Assembly (NCBI RefSeq): GCF_963921235.1 | Contig: NC_086107.1 | Span: 114,144,001-114,208,000, forward strand | From: Mobula hypostoma | Taxonomy: Eukaryota | Direction: 5' to 3' | DNA length: 64,000 bases | Shown here: piece by piece, positions 6,807 to 61,705 of the stretch | How the letters are laid out: every line of letters starts with the position of its first letter | Numbering within the stretch: the stretch's first letter is position 1 | Made by a program: the position numbers and the translations under genes | Notes under the pieces: model-generated | The model's database searches: none | The model's input: only the letters and a program-made list of their open reading frames with translations | What the model was told of the DNA's origin: nothing

Positions 6807-7240
6807 TCTTACTTACCGACTGCCCGTTACACCACTGGTGTTTCAGGCAGCAATGAAGATTCTCCATCTCTGGTGGTGTTCAGGGCTTCCTTCATCATGC
6901 CGGTGGCTTCCTCTCGGTTTTCACTACTGTCACTCATGCAAGTCCCTGGGTGGAGACTCAGGAATACCGTCGCACTCAGATGTAGAAGGATTCTTCATTG
7001 CTGTTTCTGCAACAATTTTGTTTTGCCCATCAGGGTTGTTAGCCCTGAGCTGAACCCCCGAACCAGGAGGAGCTGTGGACCACTCTTCATCTGGTCTCTA
7101 CCCTTTGACCTGTTTGGCATGGGCGACCCTATCAAGATCAAAGCATCCAGCCCTGACCCCAGCCAACATAGCCCTCTCGATCATTGAGGCATGCATCCTC
7201 CAAACCCTACAACGTGGTTGTGGTCCGCTTGAATGGACCA
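6807..7240 (-). mobile_element. Short RTE-clade-like element at the left outer palindrome boundary (counterpart ~60995-61405 +)
   Basis: GTTGTTAGCCCTGAGCTGAACCCCCGAACC...CTACCCTTTGACCTG...GGCATGGGCGACCCTA resembles RTE 5' ends; TAAG-type tail; family call from recall only. Confidence 0.55.
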
Positions 7241-7504
7241 CTGGGCTTGGAGAACCTTTTCCCATCAACATCATAGATATGTGGAGTATGTTATACAGTA
7301 CTAAAACAGGCCATTCAGCCCAGCACATCGTTCCTAACCAAGTTACCTGCACAACTTAATCCCATTTCCCCTCAATTGGCCCATGTCCCTCTAAAGTTTT
7401 TGGATCCTTATTCCTGTTCAAATATCCTTATTTGTTATAATTGTACCACCTCGACCACTTCCTTTGCAGCTCGTTCCACCACCCTCTGCAGGAAAATTTG
7501 ACCC

Positions 7505-58700: not shown

Positions 58701-59665
58701 AAATTAGTTTGAACCCTCCCGAACCATGCTAGCAAACCTACCTGCAAGGATATTGCTCCCCCTCGAGTTCAGGTGCAACCCATCCAATCTGTACAGGTCC
58801 CACCTTCCCCAGAAGAGATCCCAATGATCTAAAAATCTAAAACCCTGCTCCCTGCACCAACTCCTCAGCCACGCATTCAACTGCCATCTCCTCCAATTCT
58901 TACCATCACTGTCACGTAGCACTGGCAGCAATCCTGAGAACGCCACCCTTGGGGTCCTGTTCTTCAGCCTTCTGCCTAATTCCCGAAACTCACACTTCAG
59001 GACCTCATCCCTCTTCCTGCCTATGTCGTTGGTCCCAACATGTATCACGACTTCTGGTTGCTTTCCCTCTCGTACCAGGAGGTCGTGCACCCGGTCAGAG
59101 ACATCCCAAACCCTGGCACCCGGGAGGCAACAAACCATGCGGGTGTCCTTCTCACGTCCACAAATCTCCTGTCTGCTCCCCTGACTATAGAGTCTCTAAT
59201 GACGACAGCTCTCCTCTTCTCCGTCCCACCCTTCTGCACCACGGGGTCAGACTCAGTGCCGGAGGCCCTGCCACCGTGGCTCACACCTGGTCGGTCGTCC
59301 CCGCCAACAGTATCCAGGACGGTAAACTTATTATTCAGGGGAATGGCTACAGGGGTGCTCTGCACTACCTGTCTGCTCACCTTTGCTCTTCCGCCCTCTG
59401 ACTGTCACCCAATGACCTGCTTCCGACAGCCTAGGTGTGACTACCTCCCTGTAGCTCTCATCTATGACTGCCTCATTCTCCCTTATGAGTCAAAGGTCAT
59501 CCAGCTGCTGCTCCAGATTCCTTACACGGTCTTCCAGATCGCCCAGCCATATGCACTTCTGGCAGATGTGACTCTGCGGGAGAGAGGCGTTCCCCCAAGA
59601 CTGCCACATCTCACATGAGAGGCACATCACCGTCTCAGGAGACATTGTAAAAACTAACTGCGAGC
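55721..59665 (-). mobile_element. Near full-length, young CR1 LINE (ORF1 with SGNH esterase; ORF2 endonuclease plus RT, a few lesions), right arm only
   Basis: 720-aa ORF 56506..58668 continued by 56299..56502 and 55777..56271; ORF1 pieces 58704..59380 (GTNDIG, DGLHLN); TAGA at both junctions; empty site at ~9364. Confidence 0.96.
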
Positions 59666-61705
59666 TAGACCTCAGAAAAAGTTATGATCAAAAGGTTGTG
59701 CACAGTGTGACTAGTATTCTGAGCTGCCTATTTTTCAATGCAAAAAGTATCGTAGGAAAGGCAGATGATAGTGCTGAAGATGAGGTAGCTGGTTTACAAA
59801 CAGTGGCGATGTGTAGTGAGGAGGGGCTGTTGATAGGGCAACATTGCAGACAACAGGATGAGTTGCAACATAAAAGGTGGACAAAATCAAAAAGGATGAA
59901 TACAGGACTGAAGGTGTTATATTTGAATTGCACAGTATACGGAATAAGCTGGATGAACTTGCAGCACAACTGCAGATTGGTGGTTATGATGATGTAGGCT
60001 CGCTGAATCATGGCTGAAAGAAGATTACAGCTGGGAGCTTAATCTTCAAGGACACACATTGTGTCAAAAGAACAGGCAGGAAGGCAGAGAGGGTGACATT
60101 GCTCTGTTGGTGAAAAATGAAATCAAATCATTAGAAAGAGGTGACGTAGGGTCGGAAGGTATTAATTCATTGTGGATAGAGCTAAGGAACTGCAAGGATA
60201 AAGAGACCCTCATGGGAATTGTATACAGGCCCCCAAACAGTAGTATGGATGTGGCCTACAGATTACAATGTGAGGTTGAAAATGCATGCCAAAAGGGCAA
60301 TGTTACAATAGTCATGGGGGGTTTCAATATGCAGGTAGATTGGGAAAATCAGGTTGGTGCTGGATTCCAGGAGGGGGTAGATGTTGGAGTTGATCATTAA
60401 GGATGAGGTCTGAGGGTACTTGGAGGCACATGACAAAATAGGCAGCAGTCAGCATGGTTTCCTCAAGGGGAAATCTTGTATGGCAAATCTCTTGGAATTC
60501 TTTGAAAAAAATAACATGTAAAATAGACAAAGGAGAATCAGTTGTTGTCACGAACTTGGATTAAAAGGAGGCAAAGAATGGGAATAAAGGAAGCCTTTTT
60601 GGTTGGCTGCCAGTGACTAGTAGTGTTCAACTGAGTTGGGACCAGTTCTTTTTCTGTTATAAGCGAATAATTTGAATAATGGAATTGATGGCTTTGTTGG
60701 GGATATGAGGGTCAAATTTTCCTGCAGAGGGTGGTGGAACGAGCTGCAAAGGAAGTGGTCGAAGTGGTACAATTATAACAAATAAGGATATTTGGACAGG
60801 AACAAGGATCCAAAAGCTTTAGAGGGACATGGGCCAATTGAGGGGAAATGGGATTAAGTTGTGTAGATAGCTTGGTTAGCAATGATGTGCTGGGCTGAAT
60901 GGCCTGTTTCAGTACTGTATAACACACTTCACATATCAACAATGATGATGGGAAAAGATTCTCCAAGCCCAGTTGTCCATTCAAGTGGACAACAACCACG
61001 TTGTAGGGTTTGGAGGATGCATGCCTCAATGATCGAGAGGGCTATGTTGGCTGGGGTCAGGGCTGGATGCTTTGGCTCCTGGTAGGGTCGCCCATGCCAA
61101 AGAGGTCAAAGGGTAGAGGCCAGACTGAGAGTGGATTACAGGTCCTCCTGGTTCGGGGGTTCAGCTCAGGGCTAACAACCCTGATGGGCAAAACAAAATT
61201 GCTACTCAAACAGCAATGAAGAATCCTTCTACATCTGAGTGTGACGGTATTCCTGAGTCTCCACCTGGGACTTGCATAACTGACAGTAGTGATAACTGAG
61301 AGGAAGCTACTGCCATGATGAAGGGAGCCCTGAACACCGCCATGAGATGGAGGACCTTCATTGTTGCCCTAAATGCCAGAGGCATATGGGAGGTAAGTCA
61401 GTAAGTCCAGTTGTCCTTGGGACCCAAGCCAAGGTTAGTCACCCAGTGTGACAAGCAACACATTCACTGACACTGGGACAAACCCAGAACTATCTACACA
61501 CCAGGGAGATACGATTGCTGGTGAGAATGCATCTCCGATGCGAAGCCTTGGTGTTAAGACCCAAACCGTGAAAAGTGAAGTGAGGATGAGGTAACAGACG
61601 GGACGGCCACAGAGCTGTCAGTAGCCAGCAGAGTTAAACCCCAAAAGAAAGGGTGAGGAAAACAAAAGCAGCTATGGTACAACAACTCGAGAGAGATAGA
61701 TAGCC

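What the first reader, a model, noticed from the sequence alone, without database searches (positions are those of the whole stretch)
6807..61405. ~55-kb palindrome with an 80-bp spacer carrying a convergent perforin gene/pseudogene pair
Seen: 24-kb and 30-kb arms are reverse complements, separated by only 80 bp, each with one perforin-like locus pointing at the centre. Known: large gene-bearing palindromes with arm-to-arm conversion are described for mammalian sex chromosomes, and long inverted repeats with tiny spacers are usually unstable. Inference: this one has persisted long enough to gain many arm-specific TEs. It may be an amplicon that maintains and diversifies a cytolytic immune effector, with one working copy and one template copy.
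Basis: partly seen in the sequence, partly recalled or inferred. Interest (0 to 1): 0.85.

Follow-up and report, generated by a model that had tools for sequence, protein, structure and literature searches.

The report
Inverted perforin gene duplication in ray
Two copies of a roughly 25-kb DNA unit carrying a perforin immune gene lie tail to tail, 80 bases apart, in a devil-ray chromosome; this is one inverted member of a five-copy perforin gene cluster, not a self-maintaining palindrome like those on mammalian sex chromosomes.

Summary
Window 6846-31144 and 31225-61368 are reverse complements around an 80-bp spacer (14 colinear blocks, 18,438 columns, 96.0% identity). The left arm carries an intact single-exon perforin gene. 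The right arm carries a broken copy, and both point at the centre. The interpretation mostly fails. The window lies in a 290-kb perforin cluster on G000:C45 holding five young copies of the same ~25-kb unit: four direct and intact, one inverted and dead. In all three supported trees the left arm groups with a direct copy 82 kb upstream. The right arm groups with the next or the first copy. They never group with each other. Nine of ten "arm-specific" segments also occur in other units. The arms look like sisters only near the centre, including a 2.9-kb near-identical tract. The central junction reads as a fold-back event. The left arm leaves the family sequence at 31221, three filler bases follow, and the inverted copy starts 77 bp upstream, with no reciprocal junction. 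The perforin copies differ mainly in the membrane-binding C2 domain (dN/dS about 1-2, against 0.25-0.5 in MACPF). No listed read contig bridged the centre. The scan had not noted this locus; comparable fold-back duplications were noted elsewhere (e1-7631945).

The parts
6846..31144 (+). Left arm: one forward copy of the ~24-kb perforin unit
   Evidence: Colinear inverted blocks against 31225-61368. The same unit limits (about 6808-6846 to 31221) recur in copies c1, c2 and c6.
31145..31224 (.). 80-nt spacer: 77 nt that continue the left arm's family sequence, then 3 filler bases (TGT, 31222-31224)
   Evidence: 9 of 10 other copies of this element in the 288-kb region run through these 77 nt and continue with a shared sequence after the position matching 31221. 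One search also shows other copies matching the query up to 31221.
31225..61368 (-). Right arm: the inverted copy of the unit, cut 77 nt short at the centre
   Evidence: The inner part is closest to the left arm and c1. The outer part (about 55-63 kb) is closest to c6, at 98-99.4%.
16262..17977 (+). Intact perforin-1-like gene (571 codons plus stop, single coding exon; an AG acceptor lies about 45 nt upstream of the ATG)
   Evidence: Pfam MACPF 1e-35 and C2 3.8e-12. Aligns to mouse perforin 3NSJ over residues 26-530, E 9e-104. The identical protein is in the public collection.
43759..45474 (-). Perforin pseudogene
   Evidence: +1 G at 45418, -1 at 45199/45200, TGG>TGA at 44025-44023; a straight read stops at codon 27.
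26688..29604 (+). Left copy of the near-identical arm-to-arm tract (partner 32636-35552)
   Evidence: 2,917 nt reported as 100% complementary, with an exact run of 2,107 nt at 26807-28913 / 33327-35433. The whole 26684-30746 block carries 74 mismatches, so the rest of that block is roughly 94% identical.
32636..35552 (-). Right copy of the near-identical tract
30739..30914 (+). 47-bp satellite (3.4 units) inside the unit's tail element (X 29935-30680, satellite, Y 30915-31221)
   Evidence: Tandem Repeats Finder. The X-satellite-Y element recurs in both orientations through the cluster.
1072..3682 (+). 2.6-kb array of the same 47-bp satellite left of the palindrome, opposite in orientation to 30739-30914
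61726..62386 (+). Another array of the 47-bp satellite, just outside the right arm
46427..49713 (-). Decayed LINE (endonuclease and RT ORF fragments); the only large insertion private to one arm
   Evidence: Pfam RVT_1 and Exo_endo_phos. Sliding windows starting 46685-49185 have no match in any other unit. The enclosing segment 45774-50482 is covered only 24-36% elsewhere.
55721..59666 (-). LINE (esterase ORF1 58707-59195; 740-aa EN+RT ORF 56509-58728), absent from the left arm but shared with c6
   Evidence: Pfam. 100% covered in c6 at 99.0%.
19187..21488 (-). LINE RT remnant, absent from the right arm but shared with c2
   Evidence: Pfam RVT_1 1.8e-30. 100% covered in c2 at 95.2%.
61369..64000 (-). 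Upstream flank of the right arm, which continues the head-to-head mirror with copy c6
   Evidence: big 239137-246339 against 278064-270865 at 97.6%, and onward to 249241/267978. Windows here match c6 at 91.6-99.6%.

Best explanation
This is a germline inverted segmental duplication inside a perforin gene cluster of a mobulid (devil-ray) chromosome. A unit of about 24-27 kb holds one single-exon perforin-1-like gene plus LINE debris and ends in an X-47bp-satellite-Y element. It exists in five young copies within about 290 kb of G000:C45. Four are direct and intact (c1, c2, the window's left arm, c6). One is inverted (the right arm) and its gene has decayed. The tail-to-tail centre most likely arose by a fold-back or strand-switch event. 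A broken or stalled end inside element Y was joined, with 3 filler bases and no homology, to the complementary strand 77 nt upstream. That gives an inverted copy and an 80-nt single-copy loop. Since then the units have diverged by a few percent. They have repeatedly exchanged patches with one another in both orientations, by non-allelic gene conversion or unequal exchange. Each arm is therefore now a mosaic. The left arm's outer part is c2-like, the right arm's outer part is c6-like, and the two are sisters only near the centre. The palindrome itself has no shown function. It is a by-product of instability in a cluster whose intact paralogues differ mainly in the EGF/C2 membrane-binding part. 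Shown: the structure, the cluster, the junction anatomy, the mosaic and the gene states. Inferred: the fold-back mechanism, conversion as the source of the mosaic, and selection on C2.
For: Structure. Cluster: the perforin search of the genome finds intact copies at C45:114003797, 114078522, 114160262 (left arm) and 114245847, all on the + strand, and a broken one at 114187762 on the - strand. A unit-specific probe (12700-15300) finds only these five at 90-100%, plus two old copies at 74-75%. The unit map in 288 kb is. Junction: 9 of 10 other Y copies continue past the position matching 31221 with the same sequence. The left arm departs there, TGT follows, and then comes the reverse complement from 31144. 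All 9 other copies of the 77-nt stretch adjoin a full Y, so the region held contains no reciprocal inversion junction. Only 1 of 25 genome matches spans the junction. Human fold-back inverted duplications show the same anatomy of a single-copy spacer plus either microhomology or inserted bases; 5 of 21 sequenced junctions had insertions (PMC3907307, passages read). Mosaic: sliding windows; ML trees with L+c2 at 100/100, 100/98 and 100/100, R+c6 at 100/99, R+c1 at 100/99; arm-only segments shared with other units; exact runs of 2,107 nt between L and R and 1,102 nt between L and c2. Gene lineages: in the protein tree c2, L and two Mobula birostris proteins form a clade (100/98) that excludes the right-arm pseudogene (99/97). 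Not an assembler product (inference): the junction has 3 filler bases and no overlap homology. The arms beside it are only 90.5% alike and differ by a 10-nt indel, which a chimeric read or a false overlap join would not produce.
Against: A fold-back event predicts that the arms are each other's closest relatives. In 7 segment trees they never are, and this holds only for about 21.5-23 kb and 26.7-30.7 kb. The explanation therefore needs later overwriting of roughly two thirds of the arms. The junction has no inverted microhomology, which most human fold-back junctions do have (13 of the 18 without repeat homology). The right arm's flank differs from the left arm's and continues the mirror with c6. 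That fits a larger inverted block (right arm plus fragment f5, at least 48 kb) whose origin I could not reconstruct. Identity is lowest (90.5%) right at the centre. This is unexpected if the centre is the youngest joint, unless other Y copies have converted it.
Confidence: 0.6

Rival explanations
1. A two-break inversion, or recombination between inverted X-satellite-Y elements, flipped one unit (plus part of a neighbour) of a once wholly direct tandem array. The palindrome is then simply a forward unit beside a flipped one.
For: The order is forward, inverted, forward (left arm, right arm plus f5, c6). The right arm's outer half and its flank match c6, not the left arm. Inter-unit DNA holds many X-satellite-Y copies in both orientations that could pair.
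Against: No reciprocal junction exists in the 288 kb held. The junction shows no homology, only 3 filler bases, so it is not recombination between repeats. The two breakpoints map 77 nt apart in the same element, a coincidence for two independent breaks in different copies.
Confidence: 0.2
2. One reading: an amplicon like the primate X/Y palindromes. Arm-to-arm gene conversion would preserve and diversify perforin, with the pseudogene serving as a template copy.
For: One arm-to-arm tract of about 2.9 kb is near-identical. Exchange between inverted copies does occur in this cluster (R+c6 and R+c1 groupings).
Against: Arm identity is 96.0% overall and 92.9% in the gene. The near-identical tract holds only LINE-type ORFs and no host gene. 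One gene copy is dead. The pseudogene's private C2 changes occur in no intact copy. The left gene's nearest relative is c2.
Confidence: 0.07
3. Assembly artefact: two paralogous or allelic units wrongly joined back to back.
For: The region is repeat-rich, with satellites and about ten copies of the central element.
Against: The arms differ by 4% and by kilobase indels, and they carry different perforin C2 lineages, so they are not alleles. The joint has filler bases and no overlap homology, and the flanking 330 nt are only 90.5% alike. Exact contigs private to each arm exist in the read-derived sets X1 and X2 (table 8). These runs may come from the source animal and so are not independent.
Confidence: 0.07

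Closest known systems
Fold-back inverted duplications with a single-copy spacer (Hermetz et al. 2014, PMC3907307; passages read)
   Same: An inverted copy is joined to its own sequence a short distance upstream, and a single-copy spacer separates the arms. Here the junction has inserted bases, as in 5 of 21 sequenced human junctions.
   Different: The human cases are de novo, mostly terminal, megabase-sized, with spacers of 766-70,466 bp. This one is interstitial, evolutionarily old, has an 80-bp spacer and arms of 24-30 kb, and the arms have since become mosaics.
Primate X- and Y-chromosome ampliconic palindromes (features recalled, not from a call)
   Same: Tens of kilobases of inverted repeat that carry a gene, with some arm-to-arm exchange.
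   Different: Their arms are kept nearly identical by conversion and both gene copies stay intact. Here the arms are 96.0% alike, one copy is dead, and each arm's closest relative is mostly another unit.
Inverted triplications (DUP-TRP/INV-DUP; ODIRA): PMC11293582, PMC4689423, PMC10766183 (search listing and abstracts only)
   Same: Forward-inverted-forward order of copies, and a junction formed by a strand switch over a short distance.
   Different: The three copies here are not one another's closest relatives. The second (head-to-head) joint has an 18.7-kb spacer holding 7.4 kb of satellite and a partial unit.
Birth-and-death evolution of perforin-1 (PMC7574235; passages read)
   Same: Tandem amplification with pseudogenes. 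Cartilaginous-fish perforin genes have one coding exon, as here.
   Different: That paper covered three chondrichthyan assemblies and could not study their loci. In the passages I read it describes no ray cluster, no inverted copy and no C2-focused divergence.

Membership tests
Sex-chromosome-type ampliconic palindrome | Long inverted arms (more than 8 kb) around a spacer | tested here: met
   Arms of 24,299 and 30,144 nt, spacer of 80 nt.
Sex-chromosome-type ampliconic palindrome | Arms kept nearly identical (about 99.9% or more; threshold recalled) by ongoing arm-to-arm conversion | tested here: not met
   96.01% over 18,438 columns. Only one tract of about 2.9 kb is near-identical.
Sex-chromosome-type ampliconic palindrome | Intact gene copies in both arms | tested here: not met
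   The right-arm copy has two frameshifts and a nonsense codon.
Sex-chromosome-type ampliconic palindrome | Lies on a sex chromosome | not testable with these tools
   The contig is G000:C45, 117,069,007 nt. No chromosome identity is given.
Fold-back inverted duplication | Inverted copy directly beside the original, with a single-copy spacer that continues one arm | tested here: met
   77 of the 80 spacer bases continue the family sequence of the left arm.
Fold-back inverted duplication | Both breakpoints map close together on the same reference sequence, with no reciprocal junction | tested here: met
   Breakpoints lie 77 nt apart in element Y. None of the 9 other 77-nt copies sits in a reciprocal joint. 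Only 288 kb was searched.
Fold-back inverted duplication | Short inverted microhomology, or inserted bases, at the joint | tested here: inconclusive
   There is no microhomology, only 3 inserted bases. That matches the minority class of human junctions.
Fold-back inverted duplication | The arms are each other's closest relatives | tested here: not met
   True only for about 21.5-23 kb and 26.7-30.7 kb. In 7 segment trees L never pairs with R. The mechanism claim therefore rests on the junction alone.
Perforin-1 (MACPF, EGF-like, C2) | MACPF and C2 domains in order, full-length match to solved perforin | tested here: met
   Pfam. Mouse perforin 3NSJ matches residues 26-530 at E 9e-104.
Perforin-1 (MACPF, EGF-like, C2) | C2 calcium and membrane residues (mouse W427, D429, Y430, D435, D483, D485, Y486, W488; last four hydrophobic contacts per PMC8704153) | tested here: inconclusive
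   The left-arm protein keeps W427, D429, Y430, D435, D483, D485 and W488, but has I at 486 and N-E-H in place of D489-D491. Function was not tested.

The most novel reading that the evidence does not exclude
The cluster is a germline repertoire of perforins with different membrane-binding heads. Satellite-bounded ~25-kb cassettes are copied, flipped and patch-converted. Selection keeps old, divergent EGF/C2 variants apart, for example tryptophan versus arginine at the position of the membrane-inserting W488. One such lineage is shared with Mobula birostris. On this reading the paralogues would attack different target membranes, and the palindrome is a visible scar of the process that generates the repertoire.
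Probability: 0.2. Interest if true: 0.6.

Novelty: new member of a known kind. Interest (0 to 1): 0.35.

Why it matters
It corrects an attractive but wrong analogy. A large gene-bearing palindrome with a tiny spacer in a vertebrate germline can be an old rearrangement scar in an unstable immune-gene cluster rather than a self-maintaining amplicon. It also gives a clean natural example of a fold-back-type junction that has survived long enough for the arms to diverge and become mosaics. Finally, it points to an undescribed expansion of perforin in devil rays in which the membrane-binding C2 domain, not the pore-forming MACPF domain, is what differs between copies.

Tried and rejected
(1) Reads. 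The look-up of sequencing runs listed 24 runs and no RNA holder. Read laying on 29500-32900 with X1 and X2 (organism A) and X5 and X6 (organism B) returned only short Logan contigs, roughly 80-430 nt among those listed. No listed piece bridges 31221-31225. At 31177 the only contig in X1 and X2 carries the paralogue's base and leaves the stretch at 31221, as does a loose end in X6. Contigs drop rare variants and a hole proves nothing, so the centre is neither confirmed nor refuted. Per-copy word depth of exact arm-private contigs is similar on both arms (X1 13.7-16.9; X2 23.8-30.3). Without a single-copy baseline the half-depth test stays open. (3) No eukaryotic genome of a related species is held, so the orthologous locus could not be compared. 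Only proteins were compared. (4) A near-identity BLAST filter gave only one row and was replaced by an exact-run scan. (5) I considered a mobile element that carries perforin, given the inverted X-satellite-Y copies at both ends of the unit. I dropped this because Y occurs only in this cluster (24 of 25 matches within 113.93-114.21 Mb) and the inter-unit DNA is a scramble of the same pieces. (6) Other host genes in the arms: of 70 further ORFs of 90 aa or more, 6 had Pfam hits, all LINE-type (RT, endonuclease, GDSL esterase). (7) Earlier notes of the scan: none on this genome. A word search gave only unrelated palindromes on other DNA. (8) The preprint on manta and devil ray assemblies has no occurrence of 'perforin', 'palindrom' or 'segmental duplication'. 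Its supplements are closed and may hold more.
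Full report
OBSERVATION. The inverted repeat is real. The repeat finder lists 33 inverted pairs of at least 200 nt. A minus-strand self-BLAST chains 14 colinear blocks from 6846/61368 in to 31144/31225. They total 18,438 columns at 96.01% identity. They cover 76% of the 24,299-nt left arm (L) and 61% of the 30,144-nt right arm (R). The spacer is 31145-31224, 80 nt. L carries an intact perforin-1-like gene at 16262-17977 (+), with 571 codons, MACPF at 1e-35 and C2 at 3.8e-12. 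It aligns to mouse perforin 3NSJ over residues 26-530 at E 9e-104. R carries a broken copy at 45474-43759 (-). It has a +1 G at 45418, a -1 deletion at 45199/45200 and TGG>TGA at 44025-44023. Both genes point at the centre. Apart from perforin, the arms hold only LINE-type ORFs: 6 of 70 further ORFs had hits, all RT, endonuclease or GDSL esterase.

CONTEXT. The window is G000:C45:114144001-114208000, on a 117-Mb contig of a 3.48-Gb genome. The closest proteins are labelled perforin-1-like of Mobula species, and L's own protein is in the public collection. A protein search of the genome finds a cluster. Intact copies lie at 114003797 (c1), 114078522 (c2), 114160262 (L) and 114245847 (c6), all on the + strand and spaced 75-86 kb apart. 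The broken copy lies at 114187762 on the - strand (R). Older relatives lie at 113.90-113.97 Mb and 83.65-83.85 Mb. A probe from the gene's upstream region finds exactly these five at 90-100%, plus two old copies at 74-75%. All other hits are a 580-nt interspersed repeat. The module from about 6808-6846 to 31221 recurs with the same limits in c1, c2, L, R and c6. A partial inverted copy (f5) lies between R and c6. Each unit ends in an element X (29935-30680), a 47-bp satellite, and Y (30915-31221). Pieces of this element, in both orientations, fill the inter-unit DNA. R is also in a head-to-head mirror with c6, with blocks up to 97.6% identical, around an 18.7-kb spacer that holds 7.4 kb of the satellite and f5. 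The local order is therefore forward (L), inverted (R plus f5), forward (c6).

THE ARMS ARE MOSAICS, NOT SISTERS. In 500-nt windows, L is closest to c2 over 7.0-11.5 kb (99.0-100%, except 96.4% in the first window). It is closest to R only at about 21.5-22.5 kb and 27-30.5 kb, apart from scattered patches at 12-14 kb and 18 kb. R is closest to c6 over about 55-63 kb (98-99.4%) and often to c1 in between. Of 7 segment trees, 3 have starred support. L+c2 is supported in all three: 8400-9350 (100/100), 10500-11380 (100/98) and the EGF/C2 part of the gene (100/100). The second also has R+c6 (100/99) and the third R+c1 (100/99). L+R is never recovered. All 6 L-only segments of 300 nt or more are present in c2 (93-99.8%). 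Of the 4 R-only segments, one is wholly in c6 (99.0%), one is wholly in c1 (98.7%) and two are partly in other units. Only the core of a LINE at about 46.7-49.7 kb is private. So the differences between the arms mostly reflect shared history with other units, not insertions gained since an arm duplication. Sharp islands of identity show recent patch exchange in both orientations. There is an exact run of 2,107 nt between L and R inside a 2,917-nt tract, in a block that carries 74 mismatches overall, and an exact run of 1,102 nt between L and c2.

THE CENTRE. I aligned all copies of Y in the 288 kb with 140 nt beyond them. Nine of 10 other copies run through the 77 nt matching 31145-31221 and continue with one shared sequence. 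L follows the family to 31221, then has TGT, then the reverse complement of the family from 31144 backwards. The spacer is thus the end of L's own element plus 3 filler bases, and R's copy is cut 77 nt short. There is no inverted microhomology. All 9 other copies of the 77-nt stretch adjoin a full Y, so no reciprocal joint (inverted continuation, 77 nt, forward continuation) exists in the DNA held. Genome-wide, only one match spans the joint. Two breakpoints that lie 77 nt apart on the same element, joined in inverted orientation with filler and without a reciprocal partner, are the anatomy of a fold-back or strand-switch inverted duplication. In 21 sequenced human cases every junction had a single-copy spacer, 13 had 2-8 nt of microhomology and 5 had insertions (PMC3907307, passages). 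The same anatomy argues against an assembler artefact. A false join needs overlap homology, and a chimeric read gives identical arms. Here the 330 nt beside the joint are only 90.5% alike and differ by a 10-nt indel. As single strands the centre folds strongly, as any such repeat must (-115 kcal/mol, z -20). The mismatches and the loop are of the kind reported to lower instability (PMC10164571, abstract only).

WHAT DOES NOT FIT. A fold-back event makes identical arms, yet two thirds of the arms now have other nearest relatives. R's flank is c6-like and differs from L's flank. I explain this by later conversion or unequal exchange, for which there is direct evidence (above), but the history cannot be reconstructed. 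A two-break inversion of a block (R plus f5) remains a serious rival. Identity is lowest at the very centre, perhaps because other Y copies have converted it.

THE GENES. Nucleotide identity between the five coding sequences is 93-99% over the first 900 nt but 85.5-94.5% in nt 1250-1650. L versus R is 92.9% overall, L versus c2 is 96.5% and R versus c1 is 94.2%. Nei-Gojobori estimates give dN/dS of 0.25-0.50 in MACPF. In the C2 domain the range is 0.61-2.13. In the short EGF-like link the nine pairs that differ range from 0.23 to 2.02. C2 also shows high dN (mostly 0.12-0.16) and raised dS. For L versus c6 the count of non-synonymous to synonymous changes is 49:10 in EGF+C2 against 10.5:9.5 in MACPF (Fisher p = 0.013). 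This shows relaxed or diversifying selection on the membrane-binding part and cannot tell the two apart. Mapped on mouse perforin, the copies keep W427, D429, Y430, D435, D483 and D485. The pseudogene is the exception, with E at 429 and G at 485. The copies differ at the membrane-contact positions named in PMC8704153 (passages). Position 486 is I or V. Position 488 is W in L and c6, R in c1 and c2, and the stop codon in the pseudogene. In a protein tree c2, L and two Mobula birostris proteins form a clade (100/98). The pseudogene lies outside the clade that joins c6 to them (99/97), and c1 is deeper still. On this tree the L and R gene lineages look older than that species split, with the caveat that conversion distorts such trees. 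The pseudogene's private changes appear in no intact copy, so nothing supports a template role.

COMPARISON AND VERDICT. The structure works like a fold-back inverted duplication. It meets the spacer, breakpoint and no-reciprocal tests but fails the test that the arms are sisters over most of their length. It fails two defining tests of sex-chromosome-type palindromes: near-identical arms and intact genes in both arms. Perforin amplification with pseudogenes, and single-exon perforin genes in cartilaginous fishes, are in print (PMC7574235, passages). In those passages I found no ray cluster, inverted copy or C2-centred divergence. The devil-ray genome preprint does not mention perforin. It is a new member of known kinds, a real and instructive locus but not a new principle. 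Read support for the centre could not be obtained (see Tried and rejected).

Noticed in passing
window 1072-3682, 30739-30914, 61726-62386; also G000:C45:114209956-114217393: A 47-bp satellite sits at the tail of every perforin unit and forms arrays of up to 7.4 kb between units. Its word depth in the read-derived contigs of both organisms is about 1e5 to 2e6, against about 15-30 for single-copy pieces, so it is a major genome-wide satellite.
   Followed up: partly
window 17400-17900 and the same part of copies at G000:C45:114003797, 114078522, 114245847: Perforin paralogues differ mainly in the EGF/C2 part. There are two clear sequence classes (c1 and R; c2 and L) plus a distinct c6. The c2/L class lacks one cysteine of the conserved CC pair, has a cysteine where the C-terminal tyrosine usually sits, and also occurs in Mobula birostris proteins.
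   Followed up: partly
G000:C45:114030395-114041272 and 114049700-114060590: A 10.9-kb direct duplication at 99.34% identity, with an exact run of 5,368 nt, lies in the DNA between units c1 and c2. It is the youngest duplication seen in the region.
   Followed up: no
G000:C45:113902204-113903484 (-) and 113973995-113975263 (+): Two open perforin-like frames (62% identity) match only residues 1-420 of the query, that is without the C2 domain. Public proteins of 447-457 aa with only a MACPF domain exist in Mobula and Hypanus. They lie in opposite orientations about 70 kb apart.
   Followed up: no
window 56509-59195 (-): A LINE with an open 740-aa endonuclease and RT frame and a GDSL-esterase ORF1 is 99% identical to its copy upstream of c6. 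A further inverted fragment of it lies at 36598-37476.
   Followed up: partly
G000:C45:83650936-83849305: A second group of perforin-like sequences (40-63% identity, one open over 612 aa) lies 30 Mb away on the same contig. A weak match to the central element Y lies nearby, at 84096800.
   Followed up: no
window 31172-31184: The spacer holds a small hairpin (a 6-nt stem, GTCAAC, one base, GTTGAC). Its stem base at 31177 is the position where the other copies and the read contigs differ from the window.
   Followed up: no
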